Source: a virus (taxonomy: Duplodnaviria; Heunggongvirae; Uroviricota; Caudoviricetes). From it: 48,006 bases of DNA. This document shows, piece after piece, positions 6,866 through 30,541 of this stretch. The translations under genes were made by a program, and so were the position numbers. Where the stretch lies: positions 1 to 48,006 of IMG/VR virus record IMGVR_UViG_2541047905_000004, one strand, 5' to 3'. Position 1 is the stretch's first letter. Every line of letters begins with the position of its first letter. The notes beneath the pieces are model-generated. The model saw only the letters and a program-made list of their open reading frames with translations. It was not told where the DNA came from and did no database searches.

Positions 6866-7054
6866 ATGCAGGACTATTTTTTGGAGTCTTTGAAGCTCCA
6901 GCGCATTGATTTTTTTCTTAAGCTTGTAGCGGCTAGTGAGTGTAGTGATGAAGAGAAGGGGCTGGCTCTGCAGTGGGTTTCTGAGTTGACTGATGAACTC
7001 ATGGCAAAAATCAGAACTCACGAATACAACCGCTCAATGGATGTCATCAGTTGA
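6866..7054 (+). CDS. Hypothetical SOS-regulated small protein (62 aa)
   Basis: ATG at 6866 after AGGAGG; first ORF downstream of the LexA box. Confidence 0.4.
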   Translation: MQDYFLESLKLQRIDFFLKLVAASECSDEEKGLALQWVSELTDELMAKIRTHEYNRSMDVIS

Positions 7055-7064
7055 GGTGACTTTT

Positions 7065-7298: not shown

Positions 7299-7457
7299 GA
7301 AAAGTTGCTGGCGTCTGAACTTGGTTCTGGCGTCAGCAAGGTTGAACAACGAGTACAGTGAGGCGTTAGGTGTGGCGTTTATTTGATGAGTGAACGCCCG
7401 TTCTCCGACAGGTTCGGAGATTAAGGTTGAAACTACGGGCAAAATACCATCTTTTTC

Positions 7458-7883
7458 CTACTTAATTGAGTCCAGTAACAAGTTACAGTTACTCTCATTG
7501 TAGAGAGAACGAGCAATTAGTGTTACCTGCTTTCCATTCATTCCCGGCTTATCCCATAACACAGCTTCTTGCGACGCCACAAATTCAGCATAATCAATTA
7601 TGCGTTGTTCGTGATCTGGTTCCTCATAGCCAAAGTATGAGAGCGCATCGTTGTAAGCGTGGTAAGCTGCTTTCTGTAATATCTTGATATCGGCTGTAGG
7701 TACTTGCCCCGTGTAGCTAGGATCTAATTGTGTGCTACTGCCATAGAATGCACATGAAAGGTAAGATATTGATTTCTGTTGAGCTTTAGTTCCTTTCTCA
7801 TAGTTTTTAGCTGTTACCGCCTGAACTGGGACGCTAACAAAGCTTGCAACCAGAATTAAAATTAATACGTAAAAGCTTTTCAT
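7458..7883 (-). CDS. Secreted hypothetical protein (141 aa), AT-rich moron
   Basis: ATG at 7883 (rc) after GAGG; signal-peptide-like MKSFYVLILILVASFVSVPVQA; AT-rich; opposite strand to neighbours. Confidence 0.5.
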   Translation of the reverse strand: MKSFYVLILILVASFVSVPVQAVTAKNYEKGTKAQQKSISYLSCAFYGSSTQLDPSYTGQVPTADIKILQKAAYHAYNDALSYFGYEEPDHEQRIIDYAEFVASQEAVLWDKPGMNGKQVTLIARSLYNESNCNLLLDSIK

Positions 7884-8155
7884 TTTGACCTCAGCCGAAA
7901 CGTTAGAGAGACTATCGAAATTTGTAAAACCCGTGGCGATTCAGTTTGAGATCCTCCCCCTTACATGATTTTTAATCAAATATATGCTTTTGTAAGCATA
8001 CCTGTTAACCGAATTATTTATTTTTAGAGATCTTCCGACATACTGATTATACCCGCTGAGGAGTTCACCTTGCGTAAAGTCCGATTCGCTTTACTCGTTT
8101 GTGCATGTCTATGCTGCATGAGATTGCATGATCGTTTGAGGATCGTTTTTGCTAA

Positions 8156-8180
8156 GGCCCGCCAGAACTGGCGGGCTTTT
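8156..8180 (+). terminator. Rho-independent terminator-like hairpin with no upstream ORF
   Basis: GGCCCGCCAG-AACT-CTGGCGGGC followed by TTTT on the + strand. Confidence 0.4.
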
Positions 8181-8225
8181 GCGTAGATCATGCACCTGCA
8201 TGAAAACCACTACATAAAGCGGGCA

Positions 8226-8244
8226 GGCGTGGCGGGGATACGAG
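8226..8244. other. Candidate cos (cohesive end) site
   Basis: GGCGTGGCGGGGATACGAG resembles the 19-nt P2-family cos as I remember it (GGCGAGGCGGGGAAAGCAC); location between the replication/tum region and the portal gene is as expected. Confidence 0.3.
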
Positions 8245-8350
8245 CGCGCGGGATGACATAACAGATTGAATTGAAAAATATTGACTAAATGTAAAATGCG
8301 AAGGATATTTAGTCCCTCTATGAAGTTTTAGATATGGAAAATGATAGGTT

Positions 8351-8641
8351 ATGAAAACGATATATAGCTATGATTACCAATACTTGCCTAAAGGGTCCAC
8401 AAGACCAATTGATGACGGAGATATAGTAGGCTGTTCGTCAGAAGAAAATCCTTTTCTTCTACTTCCCAATGTAGGTGATTTTGTCTCTATATGTAATGAC
8501 AATAGTCGGTCTTCGTTTAGTGGTATTGTTAAAACTAGATATTTCACTTATACGAGAATAAGTGAGGAGTGCGTACAATGTTCAATTAATATTGTAGTTG
8601 CAGAATCTGATGTAGATTGGGGTACTCTTATTAAAGAATAA
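8351..8641 (+). CDS. Hypothetical small protein (96 aa), AT-rich, with 4 Cys
   Basis: ATG at 8351; AT-rich; Cys at GCSSEE, ICND and two in ECVQCS could form a small metal-binding fold (inference). Confidence 0.45.
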   Translation: MKTIYSYDYQYLPKGSTRPIDDGDIVGCSSEENPFLLLPNVGDFVSICNDNSRSSFSGIVKTRYFTYTRISEECVQCSINIVVAESDVDWGTLIKE

Positions 8642-8696
8642 TATGGGGCGTCTGCGTAAGTGGGCGCTATTAAAATAAAATGGAATCTTGTAATGT

Positions 8697-9383
8697 ATGG
8701 TTAAATTTAATAATAACTTTGATTTTCCATTGGTAACAATACTGACGGTGTTGCTATTTATATTGGCATATTTTTTTAAACTTGGTGAGGCCGTTTATTT
8801 TGGTTATCCAGCAATACTTATATCATTAGATTTAACGAGTGTTGCGAATATTTCTTTAAAGCTTTTTTTCTATTTTGGTAGTATTGTTATAGGTGTTTTT
8901 AATTTTATTTTGAATGATGGTGCGATTAAACTTAATAAAATTAAGTATGTTCTTTGGATTTTTATTGCCATAACAATATTTTCAGTTTTTTTAAGTTTTA
9001 AGAGGGGGGAGAAAGACTTAGTTAACTATCTTAATGGTGGTCTTTTTGGTATTTGTTCATGGTTGGTGGTAATGTCGTTGTTCAAAACATTTGAACGAAG
9101 TGGTGATTTGATTAATATAGATTTCGTATATGCCATATTAACGGTTTTCTTTATGTCAGTTACTAGTTTTCTTGGAGGGATTAATTATCATAATCAGTTT
9201 GCATCTGTTCTATGGAAAACCTTGGATGGAAAAATAGTAGTTGGAGAATATAACGGCAATTTTGTTTTAAAGAAATGCGTAGATGGCAAAGGGGTTTTTA
9301 GCTTTAGAGAGGTAAATGGTAGCGAATTTGTTGAGGTTGTAAATTATGTGGAAGGGAAGTTTAATCCAAGGTGCAATAGATAA
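8697..9383 (+). CDS. Hypothetical polytopic membrane protein (228 aa), AT-rich
   Basis: ATG at 8697; about five hydrophobic helices (LVTILTVLLFILAYFF, FYFGSIVIGVFNFIL, VLWIFIAITIFSVFLSF, LFGICSWLVVMSLF, VYAILTVFFMSVTSFLGGI) followed by a roughly 60-aa soluble tail. Confidence 0.5.
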   Translation: MVKFNNNFDFPLVTILTVLLFILAYFFKLGEAVYFGYPAILISLDLTSVANISLKLFFYFGSIVIGVFNFILNDGAIKLNKIKYVLWIFIAITIFSVFLSFKRGEKDLVNYLNGGLFGICSWLVVMSLFKTFERSGDLINIDFVYAILTVFFMSVTSFLGGINYHNQFASVLWKTLDGKIVVGEYNGNFVLKKCVDGKGVFSFREVNGSEFVEVVNYVEGKFNPRCNR

Positions 9384-9406
9384 AGGTGCCAGGGCACCTT
9401 TCAAAT
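9384..9406. terminator. Bidirectional hairpin between convergent genes
   Basis: AAAGGTGCC-AGG-GCACCTTT between the stops of the 8697..9383 ORF and the portal gene. Confidence 0.4.
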
Positions 9407-9411
9407 AATTA

Positions 9412-10437
9412 TTAAAGTTTGTAGGCGTCAAAACTGATAACAGTTTTACCTAACCATATATTCAATTCTTCAAATCTTTTTTGCAATGATGTTAGTTCAT
9501 TTCTTACAAAAACATTACTCGCCTTCTCCACATCCCCAAACCCTCCAACATTATTAGGCATAATCCCCATCATTTGCGGCGGCACGCGGTGCGCAGCCAT
9601 CATGTCATCCCGGCTCACGTTCTTGATATTCAAAAATTCATCCTTTGCCGCGACTTCTGACAGAGGAATAATCTGAAGCCCGTCCTTTTTGCCGTTAGGC
9701 GAGTACATAAACAGGTTGCGGAAGTTGCCTGGACCTTTGGCGCTTTTCATCGCGTTGCGGAGGTTGTTCACATCTTCCTGGTTCTGCGCGGCGTCGGTCA
9801 TATACATGATGAAGCCAGCATGACTGCCGTTAATGTAATACTTTCGACGGAACAGCGTGGCGGACTCATTGAGCAGGGCGGACGGAATGGCAGAAAGATA
9901 GCCGGGCAAGCCGTAGATCTCCTGGTTAATGTCCGGTTCCATCAGATGAAAAATGCTGCCTTTCGTGAACTGATATGGCTGGGTTGTCATACCGTATTGC
10001 ACAAACCAGTAGGTATCCAAGTCTAACCCGCGTCGGGTGTATTTTGCCAGCGCAGGCTCAAGGGCGATAACTTCACCGAAGCGGTTCGTGCGTTTCTCCA
10101 GGTAGGCGTTACCAAAAACCAAATAGTCCTGCACAAAACGCGAAAAAGCCTGCTGGCTGAGCAGCGGGTGAGGGATGTAGGTGCTGGTCAAAATGTTGCA
10201 TTTCACCGCAATCGGTGAGCTGTGATGCACGGCGGCACGGAAGGTTCGTGCCAGCCCGTCAAAGCTGACGGGCGGCTCATACCAGCGATCCATCTGTACG
10301 CATTCCACATAGTCCAGCAGTTCGCGGCGGTCCAGAACAGGAACGGGATCACCGAAGCTGAATGCTTCGGCTGAAGTCTGGCTTTTATGCTGGTTCTGGT
10401 TCGTCGACGCAGCGCGGTTCTTCTTACTCTTTCCCAT
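9412..10437 (-). CDS. Q: Portal protein (P2 gpQ-like)
   Basis: ATG at 10435-10437 (rc) overlapping the P stop (TGATG); track ORF starts 3 nt earlier at TTG. MGKSKKNRAAS...; size and order Q-P as in P2/186. Confidence 0.85.
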   Translation of the reverse strand: MGKSKKNRAASTNQNQHKSQTSAEAFSFGDPVPVLDRRELLDYVECVQMDRWYEPPVSFDGLARTFRAAVHHSSPIAVKCNILTSTYIPHPLLSQQAFSRFVQDYLVFGNAYLEKRTNRFGEVIALEPALAKYTRRGLDLDTYWFVQYGMTTQPYQFTKGSIFHLMEPDINQEIYGLPGYLSAIPSALLNESATLFRRKYYINGSHAGFIMYMTDAAQNQEDVNNLRNAMKSAKGPGNFRNLFMYSPNGKKDGLQIIPLSEVAAKDEFLNIKNVSRDDMMAAHRVPPQMMGIMPNNVGGFGDVEKASNVFVRNELTSLQKRFEELNIWLGKTVISFDAYKL

Positions 10438-12203
10438 CAAAAAATCTCCACAATATTGCTGGCATTGGCGGACTCGCCCTGCAGCGGTTCGTTAAACAGT
10501 GCGTGCATTGTTGCCCAGGCCAGATCGGCATGGCTGGCTTCTTCGCTGCGGCTGGCTTCATAGGTCGGGCGGTTGCCGCTGGCGGTGGTGGCGCGACGGA
10601 TTGCCATGAATGACTGCGCAATGTCGGTGTGTCCGGCGTCAAATTCCAGGCGGCGGTGACTGATAATGTCGTAGGCCTTGAGTACCAGGGCGTTTTTAAC
10701 GTTGGGGTTGTAGACAAACTCCCGGACGGCAGGAAAAAACGCTTTCACGTTCTCGTAAACCCCGTGACCGACGCCGGTCGAGTCGATGCCGATATAGGTC
10801 ACGTTATACTGTTCGGTCAGTTTTTTGATGGCGTCAGCCTGGGCGCGGAAGTCCATTCCGCGCCACTGGTGACGCTCAAGAATGCGGAACTTACCGCCCT
10901 GCACGGCTGGCGGTGCCACCACCACGCATCCGGCGCTGTCGCCGTTCTGCGTACCTTTTGCCGGGTCATAACCGATCCACACTTCGCGCCAGCCAAACGG
11001 GCGCAGGGCCAGTGCATGAAAGTCGGTCCAGACTTCCCAACTGTCCACCATGCACGCCTGCAGCTCGCTGAGCGGGAACACGGACGCGAGATCGTCCACG
11101 AACTCACACATCAGCAGGTTCTGGTATTCGTCCGGGCTGTATTCCATGCGCAACTGGTCAAGGTCGAACAGGTTACAGCCGCCGCGCACCGCATCTTCTA
11201 CGGTGACTATCTGGCGGTATTGCCCGTCTGCGCACAGCAGGCCGGGGGCCAGATTGCTGTGGGACAGGTCGATGTCCACCTTGTCGGCTTTGTTGCGTCC
11301 ACGGTTGAACAGCGCACCGGACCAGAACGGATAAGCACTGTGGGTCAGGCTGGATGGCGTGGAAAAATAGGTTTGTCGCCATTTTTTGTGAATAGCCATA
11401 CCGGAAGCCACTTTGCGCAGCTCCTGGAATTTCGGGATCCAGAAATATTCATCCAGATACAGGTTGCCGTGGTAACTCTGGGCAGTGCGGGCATTGGTGC
11501 CGAGGAAGTAAAGCGTGGCCCCGTTAGGAAGCACCATCGGATCACCTTTCAGCTCCACCTCGACTTCTTTGGCAAAATCGATGATGTACTGCTTAAAGAC
11601 GTGAGCCTGTGCCTTACTGGCAGAAAGGAAAATCTGGTTACGTCCGGTAAGCAGGGCGTCAATCAGGGCTTCACGGGCAAAATAGAAGGTCGCGCCGATC
11701 TGGCGTGACTTTAGCAGGTTGCGGATGCGGTTGGTTTTTCCGGCTTCCCACCAGTGGCGCTGGTAGTTGAACATGGAGGAATGGAAGATTTCTTCCAGCT
11801 TCTCAATCTGTTCATCGGTGAAAACGTTCTTTTCCGGCTGACGACGCGGGCCTTTGTTGCGGTTGGCGACGTTAGGGTTTAAGTCGGCTTCGTTGCCGCC
11901 ATTGTTAAACTTGCCGATCCGCGCGTGGCGCTCCGACTGGCGCGCCAGCAGGTCAATCTCTTTGAAATCTTTCCCTTCTTTGTGCTCCTTCATAATGAGC
12001 TGGCAGTAGCGTGCGGCGGTGGTGAGCTGCATCTGATCCAGCGGCCCATAGTCACCCCACTTGTCGCGTTTTTTCCAGCTGTGAACGGTTGCAACTTTCT
12101 CGCCCAGCATTTCAGCAATGCGGGCTACGCGGTATCCCTGAAAGTACAGCAGCATGGCCTGCCGACGGGGATCGAGATCTGCGGGTGTCAGTGTGGTGTT
12201 CAT
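10437..12203 (-). CDS. P: Terminase large (ATPase) subunit (P2 gpP-like)
   Basis: 588 aa, ATG at 12203 (rc); divergent from O as in P2; N-terminus MNTTLTPADLDPRRQAMLLYFQGYRVARIAEMLG recalled as gpP-like. Confidence 0.85.
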   Translation of the reverse strand: MNTTLTPADLDPRRQAMLLYFQGYRVARIAEMLGEKVATVHSWKKRDKWGDYGPLDQMQLTTAARYCQLIMKEHKEGKDFKEIDLLARQSERHARIGKFNNGGNEADLNPNVANRNKGPRRQPEKNVFTDEQIEKLEEIFHSSMFNYQRHWWEAGKTNRIRNLLKSRQIGATFYFAREALIDALLTGRNQIFLSASKAQAHVFKQYIIDFAKEVEVELKGDPMVLPNGATLYFLGTNARTAQSYHGNLYLDEYFWIPKFQELRKVASGMAIHKKWRQTYFSTPSSLTHSAYPFWSGALFNRGRNKADKVDIDLSHSNLAPGLLCADGQYRQIVTVEDAVRGGCNLFDLDQLRMEYSPDEYQNLLMCEFVDDLASVFPLSELQACMVDSWEVWTDFHALALRPFGWREVWIGYDPAKGTQNGDSAGCVVVAPPAVQGGKFRILERHQWRGMDFRAQADAIKKLTEQYNVTYIGIDSTGVGHGVYENVKAFFPAVREFVYNPNVKNALVLKAYDIISHRRLEFDAGHTDIAQSFMAIRRATTASGNRPTYEASRSEEASHADLAWATMHALFNEPLQGESANASNIVEIF

Positions 12204-12249
12204 GGCACAAACCTACAGCCTTGAATGAAGGCTTTCCCCGCCTGCGGTT

Positions 12250-12267
12250 TGTGTGGTTCTCGGTACA
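12250..12267. promoter_or_regulatory. Late promoter activator site (TGT-N12-ACA, Ogr/B type) in the P/O divergent region
   Basis: TGT at 12250-12252, 12-nt spacer, ACA at 12265-12267; about 80 bp upstream of the O ATG. Confidence 0.4.
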
Positions 12268-16943: not shown

Positions 16944-17337
16944 AGCGGTGCCTTATGTCCGCAATAACCCGGACAAACTGCATCTGTTTGTGGATAACGG
17001 TTCGCTGGTTGCCACAGGGGCCAGCTCCATGTCGTGGGAGTACCGTTACACCCTGAACGCGGTGATTGAGGATTTCAGCGGCGACCAGAATCTGCTGATG
17101 GCCCCGGTTTTGCTGTGGCTGAGGGATAACCAGCCCGATGCCATCAATAACCCGGCGTTACGGGAAAAACTATTCACCTTTGAGGTGGATATTCTGCGCA
17201 ACGATGTCTGTGATATCAGCCTGAACCTGCAACTGACGGAGCGTGTGCTGGTCCGCACTGACGGCAGTGTGTCGAGCGTTGAAGCTGTAGCAGAACCCGA
17301 TGAACCTGAAGAAATGTGGACGGTGAAACGTGGCTGA
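16906..17337 (+). CDS. R: Tail completion protein R (gpR-like)
   Basis: GTG at 16906, 8 nt after AGGAG (track ORF starts at TTG 16885); similar to P2 R as recalled (LRRAL...IFVDNGS...RYTLN). Confidence 0.75.
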   Translation: MNKPQSLRHALNKAVPYVRNNPDKLHLFVDNGSLVATGASSMSWEYRYTLNAVIEDFSGDQNLLMAPVLLWLRDNQPDAINNPALREKLFTFEVDILRNDVCDISLNLQLTERVLVRTDGSVSSVEAVAEPDEPEEMWTVKRG

Positions 17338-17773
17338 ACTGCAGAAGGTGGACGACTGGTTGAGTGCCTTGCTGGCGAATCTGGAACCAGCCACGAGAAG
17401 TCGCATGATGCGCCAGCTGGCGCAGGAACTGCGCAGGACACAACAGAAGAACATCAGGATGCAGCGCAATCCAGATGGCAGTAGTTATGAACCGCGACGG
17501 GTAACAGCACGCAGTAAAAAGGGGCGTATCAAACGTCAGATGTTTGCAAAGCTGCGCACCACAAAATACCTGAAAACTGCCGCCAGCGCCGATTCTGCCA
17601 GCGTGCAGTTTGAAGGTAAGGTACAGCGCATTGCCCGTGTTCACCATTACGGCCTGCGTGATCGCGTCAGCCGCAAAGGACCGGAGGTCCGTTATGCAGA
17701 GCGGCAGTTACTTGGCATAGATTCTAAAATAACCGCCGTTATTCGTAATAAGCTATTTGAGTTTATTAAATAA
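17330..17773 (+). CDS. S: Tail completion / virion morphogenesis protein S (gpS-like)
   Basis: GTG start at 17330 directly after the in-frame stop; 147 aa; follows R. Confidence 0.8.
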   Translation: MAELQKVDDWLSALLANLEPATRSRMMRQLAQELRRTQQKNIRMQRNPDGSSYEPRRVTARSKKGRIKRQMFAKLRTTKYLKTAASADSASVQFEGKVQRIARVHHYGLRDRVSRKGPEVRYAERQLLGIDSKITAVIRNKLFEFIK

Positions 17774-17779
17774 AAACTC

Positions 17780-19576
17780 TCAGGATTGTGATAAATGTAT
17801 TAAACATTGACAAAAATATTTAATGTCGTCACATATTTCATCTTTATTCATGTGTTCCAAAACTTCATCTCGAGTAATTGAGAAGTTATGTTTTAGTGAA
17901 TTTTCGCCACTAATGAAAATTTCTTTTCCATGTGCGTCTTTTAAGGCTGCAGCTATATCTGTAGATGTTATCGAATCAGGGATAGCTAACGCATGTCTAT
18001 CTCTAAAGAAATTACGTATATCTTCTTCAGATGTGTCTGCAGCTCTTGCGATGGCTGATATATCTAGAAAGTAATTTTCAATGTGTCTGCGACGCCATTT
18101 CATGGCTAAAAAATCACTATCGCCGTGATTTGTTGATTTATCTTTAAGATCAGCTCCTACAGAATGGTCGCTATCATCATCACGATCGCGCATGCTAATG
18201 GCTTTTAAGTCAGGAATTTCATTTTTTAATTGTTTGTATAATTGAAATCTTTCTGAAGATTTTCCAGTCCAAAGCCATGTGACAATATTTTTGGGCCATG
18301 TTAGTTCTAACTTTTCAAATATTTTTTTTAGGAATCTTTCATCGCTAACACCTTCAACAATCAACAATTTTTTGTCTTCGGTAAGCTTATGGATTTTAGG
18401 GCTAAAGATCGTGCCAATTCCACTTAATAGACCTATTTTTTCATTATCAGATCCAAGGTATTTCCCTCTGGACTTTGATAGTGCCAAAATTTTCTGTGGT
18501 TCATAAGCCCTGATTAATTCAGTAGAGTGTGTTGCCAATAGGACCTGCTTTCCTTTTTTAATTGTTATCTCTTCTAAACGTTCAGTTAGATTTTTCTGTA
18601 ATTGTGTATGCAGGTGAGCATCTGGTTCATCTAGTAGAATGACATTAAATTCTTCTGATAAGGCCAATGTATATACACTTAACCATTGAAGAAAACCGCT
18701 TCCTTCAACCATAATATCTCTAGCATTGAAGTTTTTGTGTTTTTTAAATTGATAACCATTGACAACGCCAGCGACACATTCAATTTTTAAGTAACTATGA
18801 TATTGTTCATTAAATGGAGTTACTTCAAGTTTTAAAGAAAAAAGGTCAAAGAGTGTTTTTTGTAATATTTCCCAAGGATCTGTTTCCCTTAATAAATTAA
18901 GGTCTTTATTGGCGATTTTGTTTCGCCCTTCTTTTAACTTCCGGCGTTTGTTTTGATTCTCTAAGTGAATATCGTAAATAGAATTTCTGATTACTCCACC
19001 AGAAAGCCCCTGACCGATTAGTCGATTCCTCATTGCTGGGCTAAGACGGCTTTCTCGGTCTGTAATACCTGCAAATGGAGGGAGATAAGCGATCTGGGGT
19101 ATATTCTCATTATTTGGAGAACCATCGTCATTCTGTATTTCTTGTAAAGCAAGGTTGCTAGATGTATTTTTTATAAATAATCTATCATTTGCTAATGATA
19201 AACCGATCTCTAAAAACTTCTCATTTTTTAAAATATCATCCCAAAAAAGCTTTATCTTTAGAGTATAACCATCATCTTCTGTTTGTTTTTGAGATTTTAA
19301 ATTGGTCCATAAGTGGCTTAAAGACGGTATAAACATCGGCGTGAAATCGACAATGCCTAGTCCGACACCTTGATTTGTCGCATTTTCAGTCCAACTCACT
19401 CTTCCTTTTTCAATTTCTAAAAGAGTCTTACAGAATTGCCACGTTGCCATTGCTTGCAGTAACGATGACTTACCGGAATTGTTCCCGCCGACTAGGAGGC
19501 TTAATTCGTCATTTAATTGTATTGTTGAGTTTTTATATTTTTTGAATTTCTTAAGCTCTACTTTTTTTATGTACAT
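17780..19576 (-). CDS. ABC-type ATPase fused to a Toprim-like C-terminal domain (OLD-family / PARIS AriA-AriB-like); candidate anti-phage defence or exclusion gene
   Basis: 598 aa, ATG at 19576 (rc). Walker A GGNNSGKSS, signature-like GLSGG, Walker B ILLDEPDAHLH, H-loop LLATHS; C-terminal LLIVEGVSDERF and SMRDRDDDSD acidic motifs. AT-rich, opposite strand, inserted between S and V. Confidence 0.6.
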   Translation of the reverse strand: MYIKKVELKKFKKYKNSTIQLNDELSLLVGGNNSGKSSLLQAMATWQFCKTLLEIEKGRVSWTENATNQGVGLGIVDFTPMFIPSLSHLWTNLKSQKQTEDDGYTLKIKLFWDDILKNEKFLEIGLSLANDRLFIKNTSSNLALQEIQNDDGSPNNENIPQIAYLPPFAGITDRESRLSPAMRNRLIGQGLSGGVIRNSIYDIHLENQNKRRKLKEGRNKIANKDLNLLRETDPWEILQKTLFDLFSLKLEVTPFNEQYHSYLKIECVAGVVNGYQFKKHKNFNARDIMVEGSGFLQWLSVYTLALSEEFNVILLDEPDAHLHTQLQKNLTERLEEITIKKGKQVLLATHSTELIRAYEPQKILALSKSRGKYLGSDNEKIGLLSGIGTIFSPKIHKLTEDKKLLIVEGVSDERFLKKIFEKLELTWPKNIVTWLWTGKSSERFQLYKQLKNEIPDLKAISMRDRDDDSDHSVGADLKDKSTNHGDSDFLAMKWRRRHIENYFLDISAIARAADTSEEDIRNFFRDRHALAIPDSITSTDIAAALKDAHGKEIFISGENSLKHNFSITRDEVLEHMNKDEICDDIKYFCQCLIHLSQS

Positions 19577-19666
19577 AGTGGAGATACCTAACCTTTATTA
19601 AACCAAATCGCCTCATCATGAGAACTGGGACAGTTTACTATCTACTGAATTGTTTCTAAAGAGAAT

Positions 19667-19684
19667 TGTATCAAGTTCCAGACA
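19667..19684. promoter_or_regulatory. Late promoter activator site (TGT-N12-ACA) upstream of V
   Basis: TGT at 19667-19669, ATCAAGTTCCAG, ACA at 19682-19684; about 50 bp upstream of the V ATG; -10-like TATGTG follows. Confidence 0.4.
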
Positions 19685-19732
19685 ATTACAATCCATTTGG
19701 GACACGCCCAATATGTGGCAATTTTTTAAGCT

Positions 19733-20311
19733 ATGAATGCACAATTAACCGAAATCATGCGCCTTATCACTAACCTGATCCGCACTGGTGTAGTCACCGA
19801 AGTGGACCGGGAAAACTGGCTTTGCCGGGTGAAAACGGGCGACCTTGAAACCAACTGGATCAGCTGGCTGACGCTGCGTGCCGGGAATGCCCGCACATGG
19901 TGGCGACCATCGGAAGGTGAGCAGGTGGTGGTGCTGAGTCTGGCAGGCAATCTGGAAACCGCGTTTGCGCTGCCCGCCATCTATTCGAATCAGTTCGCTC
20001 CACCGTCGACGTCGGCAGACGCCTGCGTGACAGAACATCCTGACGGCGGCTGGTTTGAATACGAACCCACCACCGGGCGCTGGTATGTCAGGGGCATCAA
20101 ATCCATGGTCATTGAGACTGCCGACAACATCACCCTGAAAACCAGTGAGTTTGTGCTGGAGGCTGACCGCACGCGTATTAACAGCGAAGTAGTGATCAAT
20201 GGTGGCGTTACCCAGGGCGGCGGAGTGATGAGTTCTAACGGGATCGTCGTTGATGCGCATCAGCATACTGGCGTCCTGAAAGGCGGCGACACAACCGGAG
20301 GCCCGGTATGA
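19733..20311 (+). CDS. V: Baseplate assembly / spike protein V (gpV-like)
   Basis: 192 aa; aligns by eye with P2 gpV (…RTWW.PS.GEQV…AF.LP.IYS…SNG…H.H.G…GGTTG). Confidence 0.85.
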   Translation: MNAQLTEIMRLITNLIRTGVVTEVDRENWLCRVKTGDLETNWISWLTLRAGNARTWWRPSEGEQVVVLSLAGNLETAFALPAIYSNQFAPPSTSADACVTEHPDGGWFEYEPTTGRWYVRGIKSMVIETADNITLKTSEFVLEADRTRINSEVVINGGVTQGGGVMSSNGIVVDAHQHTGVLKGGDTTGGPV

Positions 20312-22160: not shown

Positions 22161-23557
22161 GCACAAAATTTTATACCCTGCTGACGGATATTGGCGCGGC
22201 GAAACTTGCCAGCGCCGCCGCGCTCGGTGTGCCTTTAAAAATTACCCATATGGCGGTCGGCGATGGCGGCGGAACATTGCCAACGCCGGACGCAAAGCAG
22301 ACAGCATTAGTAAATGAGAAACGCCGGGCTGCGCTGAATATGCTCTATATCGACCCGCAGAACAGCAGCCAGATTATTGCTGAACAGGTGATCCCTGAAA
22401 ACGAGGGCGGTTGGTGGATACGTGAAGTGGGCCTGTTTGATGAGTCCGGGGCATTGATTGCCGTGGGCAACTGCCCGGAAAGCTATAAGCCGCAACTGGC
22501 TGAAGGCAGCGGGCGTACCCAGACCGTGCGCATGGTGCTGATTACCAGCAGCACGGACAATATCACCCTGAAAATCGACCCTGCCGTAGTGCTGGCAACC
22601 CGCAAGTATGTGGATGACAAGGTACTGGAGCTGAAGGTGTACGTAGATGACCTGATGGCAAAACATCTTGCTGCACAGGACCCACATTCACAGTACGCGC
22701 CAAAAGCCAGCCCGACATTTACCGGAACCCCCAAAGCGCCAACGCCAGCGGCGGGGAATAATACCACGCGGGTTGCGACCACTGCGTTTGTACAGGCGGC
22801 ACTGACGGCCCTTATTAATGGTGCGCCAGCCACGCTGGACACGCTGAAAGAAATAGCCGCAGCCATTAACAATGATCCGAATTTCAGTACCACCATTAAC
22901 AATGCGCTGGCACTAAAAGCACCGTTGTCGAGTCCGGCACTCACCGGAACGCCAACAGCCCCCACGGCGGCGCAGTCGGTCAACAATACACAGATTGCCA
23001 CTACGGCTTTTGTGAAATCGGCGATTGCAGGAATGGTGGGTTCTGCACCTGCTGCACTGGATACACTGAACGAACTGGCGGCGGCACTGGGGAATGATCC
23101 GAACTTTGCCACGACAATGCTTAATGCGCTGGCAGGTAAACAACCGCTGGACAATACGCTTACCAATTTGAGTGGAAAGGATGTGGCTGGTCTTCTCGCA
23201 TACCTTGGTTTGGGAAAAGCGGCTAAAAGGAATGTAGGGACAGGGGCGAATCAGATACCTGATATGGGTAGCTTCACGCTTTCTGTTTCAGGTACTGGAT
23301 ATCAAAAATTACCATCAGGTTTTATTCTTCAGTGGGGCTCAATCGGCGCACCAGGCATTGCACAGGATGTAGTAACCCATTTCCCGATTGCATTTCCAAA
23401 CAGATGTCTGCGTGTTTTGGTCTCACAAGACTACACACCAGATAGCGGGGCTGTTGGTTATATTGCCTGTGCAGGTTTTAGTCCCGACCCGGTTAAATTT
23501 ATATCCAGAGCCAGTACTCCTGGCCTCGGCGCTTCATTTTTAGCGTTAGGCTGTTAA
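22157..23557 (+). CDS. H: Tail fibre protein H, variant 1 (constant N-terminal part plus Mu/P1 S-type C-terminal module)
   Basis: 466 aa; N-terminus [18 protein letters not shown]...MAVGDGGG typical of P2 gpH; C-terminal 114 aa (from 23216) unique to this copy, with [13 protein letters not shown]. Confidence 0.85.
23193..23218. other. Candidate serine-invertase crossover site (hix/gix/cix/pix-like), left
   Basis: TTCTCGCATACC-TT-GGTTTGGGAAAA: two 12-bp imperfect inverted half-sites (9/12) around a central dinucleotide; inverted copy of the right site with 25/26 identity; lies exactly at the constant/variable junction of H. Confidence 0.55.
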
Positions 23558-23578
23558 TTTAGCTATATGGAGTGAAAA

Positions 23579-24019
23579 ATGAATTACATATATTCCGCGA
23601 CTACAAACTCTTTCTATCCGCTGGAGATGAAAGAGGATTACACTCAAGCTGACTCATGGCCAGATGATGCTGTTGAAGTTGATGAGCAAGTGTATATTGA
23701 GTTTTCCGGATTACCGCCGAAAGGAAAAATCCGTATCGCTGGAGAAAATGGTTTTCCTGCATGGTCTGAAATTCCACCACCAACACATGAGGAACAGATT
23801 GCTGCAGCCGAACTGGAAAAGCAGCAACTGATTAATCAGGCCAACGATTATATGAACAGTAAACAATGGCCTGGTAAAGCGGCTATTGGCCGGCTGAAAG
23901 GTGAGGAACTGGCGCAATATAATTTGTGGCTGGATTATCTGGACGCACTGGAACTGGTCGATACTTCCGGTGCGCCAGATATTGAATGGCCTACGCCTCC
24001 GGCAGTTCAGGCCAGATGA
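23579..24019 (+). CDS. Tail fibre assembly protein (Tfa / gpG-like), cognate to H variant 1
   Basis: ATG at 23579, 21 nt after the H stop, with GGAGTGA; C-terminal WLDYLDAL...WPTPP Tfa-type motif. Confidence 0.75.
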   Translation: MNYIYSATTNSFYPLEMKEDYTQADSWPDDAVEVDEQVYIEFSGLPPKGKIRIAGENGFPAWSEIPPPTHEEQIAAAELEKQQLINQANDYMNSKQWPGKAAIGRLKGEELAQYNLWLDYLDALELVDTSGAPDIEWPTPPAVQAR

Positions 24020-24584
24020 CGTCCGGCGCTGTGCTGGTATCTGTTGCCGTCACCGCGTCAATGTAATCCAGCACAGCGTTAAGTCGGGTGTTTTCTGGCT
24101 GCGTCAGCTTCCGCCCAGCCTGTAATTTCAGTTGAATCAGACTGATGGAAGCCATTGCAGCATCAATCAGCGACTGGCGCTGTGCTTCTGCCGCTTCTAC
24201 TGCGGCGCTATGCTGTGCCTCGGTATCCGTCACCCATTTCTCACCATCCCATTTATCGTATGGCGTTAACGGTGAAAGCGTGACATAACCGTCTTTGATG
24301 GCACCGATATAATCCACTGTAACAGCTGCGCCATTTTCAGTTGAGTAAACGGTCTCATTGCGATGGTCTTCTTCATGGCTCCATCCCTTACCCGTAAATA
24401 CTGCCACTTTTCCCGGAATGTTTTCGCCCGGGTCAATACCAGTGGAACAGGCGGGTATACTTACGCCAGTATTAATATATTCATCAGACCAGCCGGTATA
24501 TTCATACGTTACTGCATTATAATAAAAACAACGCATATCGCCCGGCACTGTAGCCAGCCCATTTTCATCAAAAACAGGTTTCAT
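23991..24584 (-). CDS. Tail fibre assembly protein (Tfa / gpG-like), cognate to H variant 2
   Basis: ATG at 24584 (rc) overlapping the H-variant-2 stop (TAATG); C-terminal VLDYIDAV...WPELP Tfa motif; 3' end overlaps the other Tfa by 29 bp. Confidence 0.75.
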   Translation of the reverse strand: MKPVFDENGLATVPGDMRCFYYNAVTYEYTGWSDEYINTGVSIPACSTGIDPGENIPGKVAVFTGKGWSHEEDHRNETVYSTENGAAVTVDYIGAIKDGYVTLSPLTPYDKWDGEKWVTDTEAQHSAAVEAAEAQRQSLIDAAMASISLIQLKLQAGRKLTQPENTRLNAVLDYIDAVTATDTSTAPDVIWPELPEA

Positions 24585-26164
24585 TATTTAGCCCTCACCA
24601 GAAAGTTAAATGCAATATTTCGTGGACGGGTTTCTGTATCTACATTTCCACTAATTTCACCATAACGTTTAACACTACGAGAGCTAAGAGCTCGTAGTGA
24701 GGAAGGCACCTTAAGACCGGGTTCGTCCGTTTTAACTATTCCCCCGTCACCGTATGTGGCCAGTATTCCTGGGTTTACTCCCTCCCGTGCACTTCCTGCG
24801 GCAAGCCCGTCCCCCGTCCACAACTCCATATTGTGTGCATGATCCATAATTGTGTGTGATTGCCCTGAAAGTAGGGTACGTCCGACATCAATCCCGCGCC
24901 CATCATCCCAGATACGAATGAAATCACCCCGTGCGTCAGGTAATGCTAGCGCCGGAAACACTTTCGCCAGCACAGGGTAATCAGTGGCAGAGAATTTCGC
25001 GCCGTTGAACTTCAAAAACACCATACTGGACCAACTGTCGATTACAGTATTTGGCATTGCGGCGGACGGCCAGAAGAACGGAACGCCAATAGCTGGAGCA
25101 CCTTCTCCCAAACCAAGGTATGCGAGAAGACCAGCCACATCCTTTCCACTCAAATTGGTAAGCGTATTGTCCAGCGGTTGTTTACCTGCCAGCGCATTAA
25201 GCATTGTCGTGGCAAAGTTCGGATCATTCCCCAGTGCCGCCGCCAGTTCGTTCAGTGTATCCAGTGCAGCAGGTGCAGAACCCACCATTCCTGCAATCGC
25301 CGATTTCACAAAAGCCGTAGTGGCAATCTGTGTATTGTTGACCGACTGCGCCGCCGTGGGGGCTGTTGGCGTTCCGGTGAGTGCCGGACTCGACAACGGT
25401 GCTTTTAGTGCCAGCGCATTGTTAATGGTGGTACTGAAATTCGGATCATTGTTAATGGCTGCGGCTATTTCTTTCAGCGTGTCCAGCGTGGCTGGCGCAC
25501 CATTAATAAGGGCCGTCAGTGCCGCCTGTACAAACGCAGTGGTCGCAACCCGCGTGGTATTATTCCCCGCCGCTGGCGTTGGCGCTTTGGGGGTTCCGGT
25601 AAATGTCGGGCTGGCTTTTGGCGCGTACTGTGAATGTGGGTCCTGTGCAGCAAGATGTTTTGCCATCAGGTCATCTACGTACACCTTCAGCTCCAGTACC
25701 TTGTCATCCACATACTTGCGGGTTGCCAGCACTACGGCAGGGTCGATTTTCAGGGTGATATTGTCCGTGCTGCTGGTAATCAGCACCATGCGCACGGTCT
25801 GGGTACGCCCGCTGCCTTCAGCCAGTTGCGGCTTATAGCTTTCCGGGCAGTTGCCCACGGCAATCAATGCCCCGGACTCATCAAACAGGCCCACTTCACG
25901 TATCCACCAACCGCCCTCGTTTTCAGGGATCACCTGTTCAGCAATAATCTGGCTGCTGTTCTGCGGGTCGATATAGAGCATATTCAGCGCAGCCCGGCGT
26001 TTCTCATTTACTAATGCTGTCTGCTTTGCGTCCGGCGTTGGCAATGTTCCGCCGCCATCGCCGACCGCCATATGGGTAATTTTTAAAGGCACACCGAGCG
26101 CGGCGGCGCTGGCAAGTTTCGCCGCGCCAATATCCGTCAGCAGGGTATAAAATTTTGTGCTCAT
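24584..26164 (-). CDS. H: Tail fibre protein H, variant 2 (same constant N-terminus plus tail-collar-type C-terminal module)
   Basis: 526 aa; first ~347 aa identical to variant 1; unique C-terminus (coded 24584..25105) contains LPDARGDFIRIWDDGRGID...SGQSHTIMDHAH, typical of phage tail collar domains. Confidence 0.85.
   Translation of the reverse strand: MSTKFYTLLTDIGAAKLASAAALGVPLKITHMAVGDGGGTLPTPDAKQTALVNEKRRAALNMLYIDPQNSSQIIAEQVIPENEGGWWIREVGLFDESGALIAVGNCPESYKPQLAEGSGRTQTVRMVLITSSTDNITLKIDPAVVLATRKYVDDKVLELKVYVDDLMAKHLAAQDPHSQYAPKASPTFTGTPKAPTPAAGNNTTRVATTAFVQAALTALINGAPATLDTLKEIAAAINNDPNFSTTINNALALKAPLSSPALTGTPTAPTAAQSVNNTQIATTAFVKSAIAGMVGSAPAALDTLNELAAALGNDPNFATTMLNALAGKQPLDNTLTNLSGKDVAGLLAYLGLGEGAPAIGVPFFWPSAAMPNTVIDSWSSMVFLKFNGAKFSATDYPVLAKVFPALALPDARGDFIRIWDDGRGIDVGRTLLSGQSHTIMDHAHNMELWTGDGLAAGSAREGVNPGILATYGDGGIVKTDEPGLKVPSSLRALSSRSVKRYGEISGNVDTETRPRNIAFNFLVRAK
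25103..25128. other. Candidate serine-invertase crossover site, right
   Basis: TTCTCCCAAACC-AA-GGTATGCGAGAA; resembles hixL as I recall it (TTCTTGAAAACCAAGGTTTTTGATAA); inverted relative to the left site. Confidence 0.55.
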
Positions 26165-28744: not shown

Positions 28745-30541
28745 ATGTACATAAAAAAAGTAGAGCTTAAGAAATTCAAAAAATATAAAAACTCAACAAT
28801 ACAATTAAATGACGAATTAAGCCTCCTAGTCGGCGGGAACAATTCCGGTAAGTCATCGTTACTGCAAGCAATGGCAACGTGGCAATTCTGTAAGACTCTT
28901 TTAGAAATTGAAAAAGGAAGAGTGAGTTGGACTGAAAATGCGACAAATCAAGGTGTCGGACTAGGCATTGTCGATTTCACGCCGATGTTTATACCGTCTT
29001 TAAGCCACTTATGGACCAATTTAAAATCTCAAAAACAAACAGAAGATGATGGTTATACTCTAAAGATAAAGCTTTTTTGGGATGATATTTTAAAAAATGA
29101 GAAGTTTTTAGAGATCGGTTTATCATTAGCAAATGATAGATTATTTATAAAAAATACATCTAGCAACCTTGCTTTACAAGAAATACAGAATGACGATGGT
29201 TCTCCAAATAATGAGAATATACCCCAGATCGCTTATCTCCCTCCATTTGCAGGTATTACAGACCGAGAAAGCCGTCTTAGCCCAGCAATGAGGAATCGAC
29301 TAATCGGTCAGGGGCTTTCTGGTGGAGTAATCAGAAATTCTATTTACGATATTCACTTAGAGAATCAAAACAAACGCCGGAAGTTAAAAGAAGGGCGAAA
29401 CAAAATCGCCAATAAAGACCTTAATTTATTAAGGGAAACAGATCCTTGGGAAATATTACAAAAAACACTCTTTGACCTTTTTTCTTTAAAACTTGAAGTA
29501 ACTCCATTTAATGAACAATATCATAGTTACTTAAAAATTGAATGTGTCGCTGGCGTTGTCAATGGTTATCAATTTAAAAAACACAAAAACTTCAATGCTA
29601 GAGATATTATGGTTGAAGGAAGCGGTTTTCTTCAATGGTTAAGTGTATATACATTGGCCTTATCAGAAGAATTTAATGTCATTCTACTAGATGAACCAGA
29701 TGCTCACCTGCATACACAATTACAGAAAAATCTAACTGAACGTTTAGAAGAGATAACAATTAAAAAAGGAAAGCAGGTCCTATTGGCAACACACTCTACT
29801 GAATTAATCAGGGCTTATGAACCACAGAAAATTTTGGCACTATCAAAGTCCAGAGGGAAATACCTTGGATCTGATAATGAAAAAATAGGTCTATTAAGTG
29901 GAATTGGCACGATCTTTAGCCCTAAAATCCATAAGCTTACCGAAGACAAAAAATTGTTGATTGTTGAAGGTGTTAGCGATGAAAGATTCCTAAAAAAAAT
30001 ATTTGAAAAGTTAGAACTAACATGGCCCAAAAATATTGTCACATGGCTTTGGACTGGAAAATCTTCAGAAAGATTTCAATTATACAAACAATTAAAAAAT
30101 GAAATTCCTGACTTAAAAGCCATTAGCATGCGCGATCGTGATGATGATAGCGACCATTCTGTAGGAGCTGATCTTAAAGATAAATCAACAAATCACGGCG
30201 ATAGTGATTTTTTAGCCATGAAATGGCGTCGCAGACACATTGAAAATTACTTTCTAGATATATCAGCCATCGCAAGAGCTGCAGACACATCTGAAGAAGA
30301 TATACGTAATTTCTTTAGAGATAGACATGCGTTAGCTATCCCTGATTCGATAACATCTACAGATATAGCTGCAGCCTTAAAAGACGCACATGGAAAAGAA
30401 ATTTTCATTAGTGGCGAAAATTCACTAAAACATAACTTCTCAATTACTCGAGATGAAGTTTTGGAACACATGAATAAAGATGAAATATGTGACGACATTA
30501 AATATTTTTGTCAATGTTTAATACATTTATCACAATCCTGA
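28745..30541 (+). CDS. OLD/PARIS-like ABC ATPase-Toprim fusion (mirror copy)
   Basis: Mirror of 17780..19576; identical 598-aa translation. Confidence 0.6.
   Translation: MYIKKVELKKFKKYKNSTIQLNDELSLLVGGNNSGKSSLLQAMATWQFCKTLLEIEKGRVSWTENATNQGVGLGIVDFTPMFIPSLSHLWTNLKSQKQTEDDGYTLKIKLFWDDILKNEKFLEIGLSLANDRLFIKNTSSNLALQEIQNDDGSPNNENIPQIAYLPPFAGITDRESRLSPAMRNRLIGQGLSGGVIRNSIYDIHLENQNKRRKLKEGRNKIANKDLNLLRETDPWEILQKTLFDLFSLKLEVTPFNEQYHSYLKIECVAGVVNGYQFKKHKNFNARDIMVEGSGFLQWLSVYTLALSEEFNVILLDEPDAHLHTQLQKNLTERLEEITIKKGKQVLLATHSTELIRAYEPQKILALSKSRGKYLGSDNEKIGLLSGIGTIFSPKIHKLTEDKKLLIVEGVSDERFLKKIFEKLELTWPKNIVTWLWTGKSSERFQLYKQLKNEIPDLKAISMRDRDDDSDHSVGADLKDKSTNHGDSDFLAMKWRRRHIENYFLDISAIARAADTSEEDIRNFFRDRHALAIPDSITSTDIAAALKDAHGKEIFISGENSLKHNFSITRDEVLEHMNKDEICDDIKYFCQCLIHLSQS

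What the first reader, a model, noticed from the sequence alone, without database searches (positions are those of the whole stretch)
17780..19576. AT-rich OLD/PARIS-like ABC ATPase-Toprim fusion inserted between tail genes S and V
The 598-aa protein has a complete ABC-ATPase motif set (Walker A GGNNSGKSS, GLSGG, Walker B ILLDEPDAHLH, H-loop LLATHS) followed by a C-terminal region with Toprim-like acidic motifs (LLIVEGVSDERF, DRDDDSD). This is the layout of OLD-family nucleases and of fused AriA-AriB (PARIS) defence proteins. It is strongly AT-rich compared with the flanking structural genes, on the opposite strand, and sits at the S-V junction, a known moron locus in P2-like phages. A second identical copy lies at 28745..30541 in the mirror arm.
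Basis: partly seen in the sequence, partly recalled or inferred. Interest (0 to 1): 0.8.

Follow-up and report, generated by a model that had tools for sequence, protein, structure and literature searches.

The report
Prophage OLD/PARIS-like ATPase-nuclease defence gene
A P2/186-like prophage carries, at a known cargo site between tail genes S and V, one intact gene fusing an ABC-type ATPase to a Toprim nuclease; it looks like an untested relative of the OLD and PARIS anti-phage systems, and the "second copy" is an assembly mirror image.

Summary
ORF 17780..19576 (-) encodes a 598-aa protein at 34% GC between 56-57% GC flanks, on the opposite strand, between tail genes S and V. That is the site and orientation of P2 orf30.

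The best defence-library match is the fused PARIS model AriAB, but it is weak (88.8 bits). Pfam DUF4435 does not match, and OLD-like_TOPRIM is below threshold.

I therefore read it as an uncharacterised single-gene branch of the OLD/PARIS superfamily. Membership of PARIS is not demonstrated.

Two corrections:
- "GLSGG" (190-194) is not at the ABC signature position. S293-G294 is.
- The window is a fold-back scaffold (KE701826.1). Its arms are identical, so the second copy is an artefact. Other assemblies carry one copy.

The gene is rare (5 of 5426 complete E. coli genomes). Relatives sit at other prophage cargo sites and in decayed prophage islands. No function has been tested.

The parts
17780..19576 (-). 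Single gene for a 598-aa ABC ATPase-Toprim fusion protein (NCBI name 'AAA family ATPase'; a 98.6% nt-identical copy in strain EC931 is WP_061548811.1)
   Evidence: ORF. Pfam AAA_15 5e-23 and AAA_21 4e-16. PADLOC AriAB 8.5e-26. 1525 homologs. AF2 model pLDDT 81.
18425..19576 (-). ABC ATPase domain, residues 1-384. Walker A 30-38 = nt 19463-19489. Signature-position EGSGFLQW 291-298 = nt 18683-18706. Walker B 311-317 = nt 18626-18646. H-loop 345-351 = nt 18524-18544. Short helical insert at about residues 193-246. Invariant but low-confidence loop 169-194, containing LIGQGLSGG (possibly the Q-loop).
   Evidence: Invariant columns. Secondary structure of the model. Alignments to Rad50 and AriA. 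Foldseek hits to TsOLD, GajA, PtuA and AriA.
17783..18424 (-). Toprim nuclease domain plus C-terminal helical bundle, residues 385-598. E408/D412 = nt 18341-18355. D464/D466 = nt 18179-18187. KWRRRHIENY 493-502 (includes E500) = nt 18071-18100.
17704..19730 (.). Variable cargo module. Similarity to empty-site and other-cargo phages stops at 17703 and resumes at 19731. The module replaces the last 23 codons of S and the whole S-V intergenic region.
   Evidence: blastn against phage 500465-1 (empty site) and Kp4865-2 (different cargo). GC 0.344.
19577..19732 (.). Divergent intergenic region between the ATPase gene and V. It contains a TGT-N12-ACA element at 19667-19684, 49 nt before the V start, positioned like P2's pV activator-binding site. 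No consensus sigma-70 promoter for the ATPase gene was found.
   Evidence: Pattern search. P2 annotation of the pV activator site. Promoter scan negative in this interval. Sequence.
17330..17773 (+). Tail completion gene S (left flank). Its 3' end is part of the variable module.
   Evidence: PF05069 Phage_tail_S. Annotated 'phage virion morphogenesis protein' in EC931.
19733..20311 (+). Baseplate spike gene V (right flank).
   Evidence: PF04717 Phage_base_V. Annotation in EC931.
28745..30541 (+). Mirror-image copy of the same gene in the second arm of the fold-back scaffold. Not an independent gene.
   Evidence: Identical sequence. Palindrome. Single copy in other assemblies with the identical protein.

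Best explanation
The gene encodes a stand-alone member of the OLD/PARIS superfamily: an ABC-type ATPase fused to a two-metal Toprim nuclease. It is carried as exchangeable cargo at the S-V (orf30) site of a P2/186-like prophage.

Shown:
- the domain architecture;
- intact, invariant ATP-binding and hydrolysis residues;
- an invariant acidic set, E408-x3-D412 ... D464-x-D466 ... E500;
- horizontal-transfer signature and single-gene organisation;
- presence at several different prophage cargo sites.

Inferred mechanism:
- It is expressed from the lysogen, antisense to the late operons.
- The ATPase heads dimerise or oligomerise and keep the attached nuclease inactive.
- A signal from an infecting phage changes the ATP-dependent conformation. 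By analogy, the signal could be an anti-restriction or other phage protein, as for PARIS, or a disturbance of RecBCD or DNA replication, as for P2 Old.
- The Toprim domains then become active, probably as a pair.
- They cut an essential nucleic acid. The most likely target is a tRNA anticodon stem, as for AriB and P2 Old; DNA nicking is the alternative.
- Translation stops and the infection aborts, which protects the lysogen population.

Because sensor and effector are one chain, activation must happen in cis. The effector cannot be released as AriB is released from AriA.
For: - Architecture and motifs.
- Toprim fold nearest to AriB, PH0156 and OLD.
- Full-length model nearest to TsOLD and GajA.
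- Best defence-library model is AriAB, and the C-terminal domain alone matches it at 1.1e-10.
- Remote homology to P2 Old through the first Toprim motif (hhalign probability 70%, E 4e-5).
- AriB's catalytic residues E26, D30, D88, E90 and E122 (PMC11464382) have the same spacing pattern as the invariant residues here.

Context:
- The gene occupies the same site and strand as the non-essential P2 orf30, between the O-operon terminator and pV.
- The S-V site was occupied in 20 of 53 sampled E. coli prophages. Cargo there includes TIR, FRG, DUF5677 and P-loop NTPase proteins.
- A 68%-identical homolog sits beside the CI repressor and integrase of a Mixta prophage.
- An 81%-identical homolog survives with S and V remnants next to a SEFIR/TIR protein in Enterobacter.
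- A 57%-identical homolog lies after the prophage lysis genes in Burkholderia.
- No conserved partner gene appears in any context.

Literature: AriB and P2 Old are both tRNA anticodon-stem nucleases, and ATP hydrolysis activates P2 Old (PMC12409363, PMC12445682).
Against: - No experiment exists for this protein or, as far as the searched literature shows, for any fused AriAB.
- Pfam DUF4435 gives no hit, and OLD-like_TOPRIM is below threshold.
- The profile of the C-terminal domain finds no solved Toprim protein by sequence.
- No promoter was identified, so expression in the lysogen is assumed.
- Trigger, substrate and oligomeric state are all analogies.
- The segment 169-194 is invariant but is modelled with low confidence. 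Part of the regulatory machinery is therefore not understood.
Confidence: 0.7

Rival explanations
1. It is a true member of the fused PARIS lineage (the 'merged' AriAB clades). On this reading it senses anti-restriction DNA mimics such as T7 Ocr and cleaves tRNA-Lys(UUU) or related tRNAs in the anticodon stem.
Against: - DUF4435 (PF14491), the domain used to define PARIS, gives no hit in this protein or in 29 homologs, even at E<=1 to 10.
- The AriAB profile has 694 positions and only 428-536 of its nuclease half align. The protein is about 100 aa shorter.
- GajA models score almost as well (80 bits) through the ATPase.
- Foldseek ties class 2 OLD with AriB.
- AriA ranks only 37th for the full-length model.
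Confidence: 0.25
2. It is a DNA-targeting class 1 OLD or Gabija-like enzyme. On this reading it nicks or degrades phage or host DNA rather than tRNA, and is gated by nucleotide levels or DNA ends.
For: The full-length model best matches TsOLD and GajA. The gene has the single-gene context that defines class 1 (PMC10568477). The Vibrio cholerae class 1 OLD is a DNA-nicking defence nuclease (PMC12392090, title and abstract). The basic KWRRRH patch next to the active site could bind any nucleic acid.
Against: OLD-like_TOPRIM scores only 13-15 bits against a cut-off of 23.2. The hhalign match to P2 Old has only 70% probability and stops after the first Toprim motif. P2 Old itself is now reported to act on tRNA (PMC12445682).
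Confidence: 0.25
3. It is not a defence gene. Instead it could be a selfish addiction or maintenance module, or a Rad50/SbcC-like DNA-processing factor that the phage uses itself.
For: The ATPase resembles Rad50, SMC and RecF. No phenotype is known.
Against: - 33 of 53 sampled related prophages have nothing at this site and are otherwise intact, so the gene is dispensable for the phage.
- None of 50,697 deposited phage genomes carries it.
- It is retained in a decayed prophage fragment next to a TIR protein.
- There is no Mre11- or SbcD-like partner.
Confidence: 0.08
4. The two mirror copies are real. On this reading the genome holds a head-to-head inverted duplication of half the prophage.
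For: The deposited scaffold really has this sequence.
Against: - The arms are identical over 22,901 nt.
- The join lies exactly in the invertible tail-fibre segment, with two alternative H C-termini and two tfa genes.
- The window lacks the invertase, sheath and tube genes that follow this segment in normal prophages.
- Assemblies of 102 kb and 255 kb that encode the identical protein have one copy (L014 and L015).
Confidence: 0.05

Closest known systems
PARIS (AriA ABC ATPase + AriB DUF4435/Toprim tRNase), including the fused 'merged' AriAB forms
   Same: - AAA_15/21 ABC ATPase plus a Toprim nuclease followed by a helical domain.
- The same E-x3-D ... D-x-[DE] ... E acidic pattern.
- Carried by a mobile element of the P2/P4 world.
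   Different: - No Pfam DUF4435 match.
- About 100 aa shorter than the AriAB profile, and the C-terminal part of that profile (537-694) is unaligned.
- One chain, so AriB-style release from an AriA hexamer is impossible.
- Located in the P2-type helper phage, not the P4 satellite.
- Trigger and substrate are unknown.
Class 1 OLD family nucleases (P2 Old, Thermus scotoductus OLD, Vibrio cholerae OLD)
   Same: - Single polypeptide with an N-terminal ABC ATPase carrying a helical insert and a C-terminal Toprim.
- Single gene with no partner.
- Prophage lysogenic-conversion cargo in P2-type phages.
- TsOLD is the best full-length structural match.
   Different: - OLD-like_TOPRIM is below threshold.
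- Only 70% hhalign probability to P2 Old.
- Sits at the S-V (orf30) site rather than the gpA-portal (old/tin) site.
- Has a distinctive invariant KWRRRHxENY motif and an LIGQGLSGG loop.
Gabija GajA (class 2 OLD) and retron-associated OLD/Toprim effectors (class 3)
   Different: No GajB/UvrD helicase and no reverse transcriptase next to the gene in any context examined.
Pfam DUF3226 / Pyrococcus horikoshii PH0156 (PDB 2p62)
   Different: The score is just under the 27-bit cut-off. DUF3226 has no described function, and no paper in the searched library mentions it. I did not verify that PH0156 belongs to DUF3226.
P2 orf30
   Same: Same site and same minus-strand orientation between S and V. Non-essential AT-rich cargo.
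   Different: No sequence similarity (BLASTP E >= 0.17). Orf30 is 261 aa and of unknown function.

Membership tests
PARIS (AriA/AriB or fused AriAB) | ABC ATPase matching Pfam AAA_15 (>=32 bits) or AAA_21 (>=27 bits), as used by Rousset et al. 2022 | tested here: met
   AAA_15 82.7 bits, AAA_21 60.4 bits. Detection rule quoted from PMC9122126.
PARIS (AriA/AriB or fused AriAB) | Effector domain matching Pfam DUF4435 (PF14491, >=27 bits) | tested here: not met
   No DUF4435 hit for the full protein at E<=1, for the C-terminal domain at E<=10, or for any of 29 homolog C-terminal domains at E<=1.
PARIS (AriA/AriB or fused AriAB) | Match to a fused AriAB profile | tested here: inconclusive
   PADLOC PDLC02981 is the top model: 88.8 bits for the whole protein, and 38.9 bits (1.1e-10) for the C-terminal domain, covering profile positions 428-536 of 694. 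The score is low for a family member, GajA models reach 80 bits, and DefenseFinder/PADLOC system calls could not be run.
PARIS (AriA/AriB or fused AriAB) | AriB-type Toprim catalytic set (E26, D30, D88, E90, E122) followed by a helical domain | tested here: inconclusive
PARIS (AriA/AriB or fused AriAB) | AriA hexamer sequestering AriB; activation by anti-restriction proteins; cleavage of the tRNA-Lys anticodon stem | not testable with these tools
   Needs biochemistry and phage assays.
OLD family, class 1 | N-terminal ABC ATPase and C-terminal Toprim in one polypeptide | tested here: met
   The full-length Foldseek top hit is TsOLD 6p74, E 7.7e-12.
OLD family, class 1 | Single gene without a conserved neighbouring partner (context-based class definition, PMC10568477) | tested here: met
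   The neighbours differ in E. coli, Enterobacter, Mixta, Burkholderia and Pseudomonas.
OLD family, class 1 | Pfam OLD-like_TOPRIM (PF20469, >=23.2 bits) | tested here: not met
   13.4-15.1 bits. 10 of 29 homologs hit weakly, best E 0.016.
OLD family, class 1 | Detectable homology to the archetype P2 Old | tested here: inconclusive
   hhalign of the family profile against P2 Old gives probability 69.7% and E 4.2e-5. The alignment covers residues 3-441 and includes the first Toprim motif.
Gabija (GajA, class 2 OLD) | Adjacent GajB UvrD-like helicase gene | tested here: not met
   The flanks are S and V. No helicase appears in any homolog context.
Retron-associated OLD (class 3) | Adjacent reverse transcriptase and ncRNA | tested here: not met
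   No RT ORF lies in or beside the 2.0-kb module. No ncRNA search was run.
Pfam DUF3226 | PF11536 at >=27 bits | tested here: inconclusive
   24.3 bits in the full protein and 26.6 bits in the isolated domain. 17 of 29 homologs match at E<=1.
P2 orf30 family | Sequence similarity to P2 Orf30 | tested here: not met
   BLASTP best E 0.17 over 29 residues.

The most novel reading that the evidence does not exclude
This roughly 598-aa family may be a separate, unnamed class of OLD-type immunity proteins. It would have a DUF3226/AriB-like Toprim domain permanently tethered to its ABC ATPase sensor. It would be activated in cis, without effector release, by a trigger different from those of PARIS and P2 Old, and it would have its own nucleic-acid target. 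If so, the little-studied S-V (orf30) junction of P2-like phages would be a third productive defence hotspot.
Probability: 0.3. Interest if true: 0.55.

Novelty: new member of a known kind. Interest (0 to 1): 0.4.

Why it matters
ATPase-Toprim proteins (Old, Gabija, PARIS and retron effectors) are a major class of bacterial immunity. Two questions about them are still open: whether single-gene forms give broad defence, and how fused AriAB-type proteins are switched on when the nuclease cannot be released.

This family is well suited to address both:
- It is compact and strongly conserved, at 54-60% identity between enterobacteria and Pseudomonas or Burkholderia.
- It works as a single gene.
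- It comes with a natural 2.0-kb cassette.

The data also document that the S-V (orf30) junction of P2/186-like prophages is a real cargo-exchange site. About 38% of sampled E. coli prophages have it occupied, and the cargo includes TIR, FRG, DUF5677 and P-loop proteins. Published work has concentrated on the old/tin and Z/fun hotspots instead.

None of this is surprising in kind. The value is a clean candidate and a site to mine.

Tried and rejected
I could not map how far the Toprim domain family extends, or whether stand-alone versions exist.
- The afdb50 fold library was unavailable.
- Sequence searches of the PDB found only ATPase similarity for the full protein and full-length profile. 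The C-terminal profile found no Toprim protein at all.
- I tried to obtain a real AriB sequence for a profile-profile test by looking for PARIS in P4-like satellites of E. coli. I built a 6-kb P4 query. None of the 60 sampled rows showed a DUF4435 cargo, so I dropped this route.
- tblastn against 50,697 phage records found nothing, even though phrog_9802 ('unknown function') matches strongly.
- A literature search for DUF3226 returned nothing.
- The promoter scan found no sigma-70 consensus in the upstream intergenic region. TACAAT and TTGTAA hexamers can be seen by eye, but their 15-nt spacing is poor and I do not count them as evidence.
- I considered and rejected: a chance ORF, a pseudogene (all motifs are invariant and full length is conserved), homology to P2 orf30, a two-gene system, and a genuine duplication.
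Full report
**Observation**

Its GC content is 0.344 and its GC3 is 0.27. The structural genes on either side are at 0.574 and 0.562, and GC3 of S, V and N is 0.55-0.68.

The gene is flanked by S (17330..17773, Phage_tail_S) and V (19733..20311, Phage_base_V), both on the plus strand. It is a real gene. The database holds 1525 homologs, and full-length relatives of about 597-600 aa at 54-60% identity occur in Pseudomonas, Burkholderia, Paraburkholderia, Cupriavidus and Comamonas. In an alignment of 44 of them, mean column identity is 67%.

**The window is a fold-back scaffold**

The window is one large palindrome. Arms 315-23224 and 25097-48006 are reverse complements. They have zero mismatches up to 23215 and only three, at 23216-23221.

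An exact-sequence look-up shows that the window is the whole NCBI scaffold KE701826.1 (GCA_000460555.1, 48,006 bp). The 1.9-kb centre holds two alternative tail-fibre C-termini and two tail-fibre assembly genes in opposite orientation. This is an invertible tail-fibre segment.

Normal prophages that encode the identical protein have one copy of everything. These are L014 and L015, on contigs of 102 and 255 kb, and E. coli EC931. In them a Resolvase-type invertase, then the sheath and tube genes, follow the segment. The window has none of those genes.

The copy at 28745..30541 is therefore base-identical but is an assembly artefact. It is not a second gene.

**ATPase domain**

Pfam gives AAA_15 (82.7 bits) and AAA_21 (60.4 bits), both above their cut-offs, plus weaker SMC_N, AAA_23 and AAA_27 hits. 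These motifs are invariant in the family:
- Walker A G30-S38, with K36;
- Walker B 311-317, with D316-E317;
- the D-loop, with D319;
- the H-loop, with H350.

It lies about 120 residues before Walker B, inside segment 169-194, which the model predicts with pLDDT below 50. The canonical position is the N-terminus of the helix preceding the Walker B strand. In the model this is helix 294-306 followed by strand 312-316, and that position holds the invariant E291-G292-S293-G294-x-L296-Q297-W298. The AriA and Rad50 alignments cover this same block.

LIGQGLSGG looks more like an SMC/Rad50-type Q-loop. That is my inference. The whole stretch YLPPFAGITDRE...AMRxRLIGQGLSGGVIRN is invariant yet poorly modelled, and I leave it unexplained.

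**Nuclease domain**

Residues 385-598 were modelled alone with 29 homologs. The model has pLDDT 93 and pTM 0.88. It shows a four-stranded alpha/beta Toprim core followed by a helical bundle.

Foldseek ties BpOLD, XccOLD and AriB at E about 0.02, with probability 0.95-0.99. The fold assignment is therefore solid, but the sub-family is not resolved.

By sequence:
- the isolated domain matches only the PADLOC AriAB model significantly (1.1e-10, profile positions 428-536 of 694);
- Pfam DUF3226 falls just under its cut-off (26.6 against 27 bits; 17 of 29 homologs);
- OLD-like_TOPRIM is weak (15 bits; 10 of 29 homologs);
- DUF4435 does not match at all;
- a profile search of PDB sequences finds no Toprim protein.

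E408, D412, D464, D466 and E500 are invariant. They reproduce the spacing of AriB's metal-binding residues E26, D30, D88, E90 and E122 (PMC11464382). This correspondence is inferred, not aligned residue by residue. An invariant basic motif, K493-W-R-R-R-H498, sits next to E500.

**Whole protein**

The full-length model has pLDDT 81. Its best matches are the ATPase-Toprim fusions TsOLD (E 7.7e-12) and GajA, followed by PtuA, Rad50, RecF and, at rank 37, AriA.

PADLOC ranks AriAB first (88.8 bits), then AriA (83 bits) and GajA (80 bits). NCBIfam has no model that comes near its cut-off.

A profile of the family aligns to P2 Old with 69.7% probability (E 4e-5). The alignment runs from the N-terminus through LLIVEGVSDERFL, which pairs with Old's VLLVEGKTETNVL.

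PHROGs holds phrog_9802, of 'unknown function', which matches residues 1-463 at 6e-136. Even so, none of the 50,697 deposited phage genomes carries a detectable homolog.

**Site and mobility**

In the P2 record, the S-V interval contains the O-operon terminator, the non-essential minus-strand orf30, and the pV activator-binding site. The present gene has the same place and orientation, but shows no similarity to Orf30.

Comparison with an empty-site phage (500465-1) and with a phage carrying different cargo (Kp4865-2, a 503-aa P-loop protein) puts the exchange boundaries at 17703/17704 and 19730/19731. The 2.0-kb module therefore brings its own last 23 codons of S and its own S-V intergenic region. 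That region includes a TGT-N12-ACA element at 19667-19684, positioned like P2's pV activator site.

Among complete E. coli genomes, 1041 of 5426 have related S and V flanks, and only 5 carry this gene, at 98.4-98.6% nucleotide identity. I examined 53 evenly sampled sites that had both flanks:
- 33 are empty;
- 20 hold other cargo, including TIR-domain, DUF6216, FRG-domain, DUF5677 and P-loop NTPase proteins, hypothetical proteins, and IS1.

Homologs in other contexts:
- In Mixta calida, a 68%-identical homolog lies beside the CI repressor and integrase of a P2/186-type prophage.
- In Enterobacter, an 81%-identical homolog persists with 70%-identical remnants of S and V, next to a SEFIR/TIR protein and a GIY-YIG protein.
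- In Burkholderia it follows the prophage lysis genes and a Dam methylase.
- In Pseudomonas it sits among small unknown genes.

No partner gene recurs in these contexts.

**What it most likely is and does**

The shown facts are:
- an intact, strongly conserved ABC ATPase-Toprim fusion;
- carried as a single-gene, horizontally exchanged prophage cargo;
- at sites where other defence-type genes occur.

The rest is inference from the characterised relatives:
- PARIS AriA senses phage proteins and releases AriB, which dimerises and cuts the tRNA-Lys anticodon stem (PMC11464382, PMC12409363).
- P2 Old is activated by ATP hydrolysis and severs tRNA anticodon stems (PMC12445682).
- Other OLD enzymes nick DNA.

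I therefore propose an abortive-infection or superinfection-exclusion nuclease. Its ATPase acts as sensor and gate, and its tethered Toprim domain is activated in cis.
- Confidence in this general statement is about 0.7.
- Probability of a tRNA substrate is about 0.45.
- Probability that it is true PARIS is about 0.25.

**Comparison with known systems**

It works like OLD and PARIS. For membership:
- The PARIS-defining DUF4435 match was tested and not met.
- The AriAB profile hit is the best available, but it is weak and partial.
- The context-based definition of class 1 OLD (single gene, ATPase plus Toprim) is met, but the OLD Toprim Pfam model is not.
- The Gabija and retron classes are excluded, because the partner genes are absent.

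Fused ariAB clades ('merged 1 and 2') are described only bioinformatically (PMC11464382 section 11). A review notes that their status is unclear (PMC10568477). I found no experiment on a fused form.

**Verdict**

The finding is real and correctly interpreted in outline, with two corrections: the signature motif and the artefactual second copy.

It is a new, uncharacterised member of a well-known kind of system, sitting at a known P2 cargo locus. This is moderately interesting as a clean experimental candidate and as evidence that the S-V site is a cargo hotspot. It is not surprising to a specialist.

Noticed in passing
window 1-48006 (arms 315-23215 and 25106-48006; centre 23225-25096): The whole window is NCBI scaffold KE701826.1. 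It is a perfect fold-back palindrome joined inside the invertible tail-fibre segment. Two H variants (466 and 526 aa) share an N-terminus, and there are two tfa genes. The invertase, sheath and tube genes that follow this segment in normal prophages are absent. Every feature of one arm is therefore duplicated artificially.
   Followed up: yes
window 17704-19730; E. coli hits H31-H83: The S-V (P2 orf30) junction is a cargo-exchange site. In 53 sampled E. coli prophages with both flanks, 33 sites are empty and 20 carry other cargo: TIR, DUF6216, FRG, DUF5677 and P-loop NTPase proteins, hypothetical proteins, and IS1. The exchanged module includes the last 23 codons of S and the pV promoter region.
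   Followed up: partly
window 6713-9412 (mirror 38909-41608): The classical gpA-portal (old/tin) hotspot holds unknown cargo. It is partly AT-rich (GC 0.35 over 8001-9000). The ORFs are a DinI-like protein (6993-7298), a 141-aa protein (7458-7883, minus strand), a 96-aa protein (8351-8641) and a 228-aa protein (8697-9383). By eye, the 141-aa protein starts with a signal-peptide-like segment and the 228-aa protein is very hydrophobic. Apart from DinI, none has a Pfam or PADLOC match.
   Followed up: partly
L002 2083-3594 (Klebsiella phage Kp4865-2): A different S-V cargo: a 503-aa protein with a P-loop (GRKGTGKT) on the plus strand. It has no PADLOC hit and only sub-threshold Pfam AAA_7 and ORC-CDC6-like hits. 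Similar 'P-loop NTPase fold protein' cargo occurs at the same site in E. coli (H81, H83).
   Followed up: partly
L008/L009 2594-8951 (Enterobacter roggenkampii): An 81%-identical homolog survives in a chromosomal island. It is flanked by 70%-identical remnants of S and V, and lies next to a 478-aa SEFIR/TIR_2 protein and a GIY-YIG_2 protein. This looks like a decayed P2-like prophage that has kept its cargo.
   Followed up: partly
window residues 169-194 of the protein (nt 18995-19072): The stretch YLPPFAGITDRE...AMRxRLIGQGLSGGVIRN is almost entirely invariant across 44 homologs, yet it is modelled with pLDDT below 50. It may be a Q-loop or an interface or regulatory segment that orders only in an oligomer or with a ligand.
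   Followed up: no
window 949-6713: The early region is 186-like rather than P2-like. It has a CI repressor with Phage_CI_repr and CI_C domains (949-1524, minus strand), CII/CP76 (1892-2407), DUF5347 (2579-2920), a Dam-type D12 methyltransferase (3385-4302) and gpA (4299-6713).
   Followed up: partly
window 12192-12209, 12250-12267, 19667-19684: TGT-N12-ACA elements lie where P2 has its Ogr/activator-binding sites for pP/pO and pV. The count in the window as a whole (6) is not above chance (expected about 12). Only the positions are meaningful.
   Followed up: partly
L012 20219-21797: In another prophage encoding the identical ATPase-Toprim protein, the old/tin hotspot next to the portal gene carries a 778-aa AAA_13/AAA_21 protein instead of the window's cargo. 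The two hotspots therefore vary independently.
   Followed up: no
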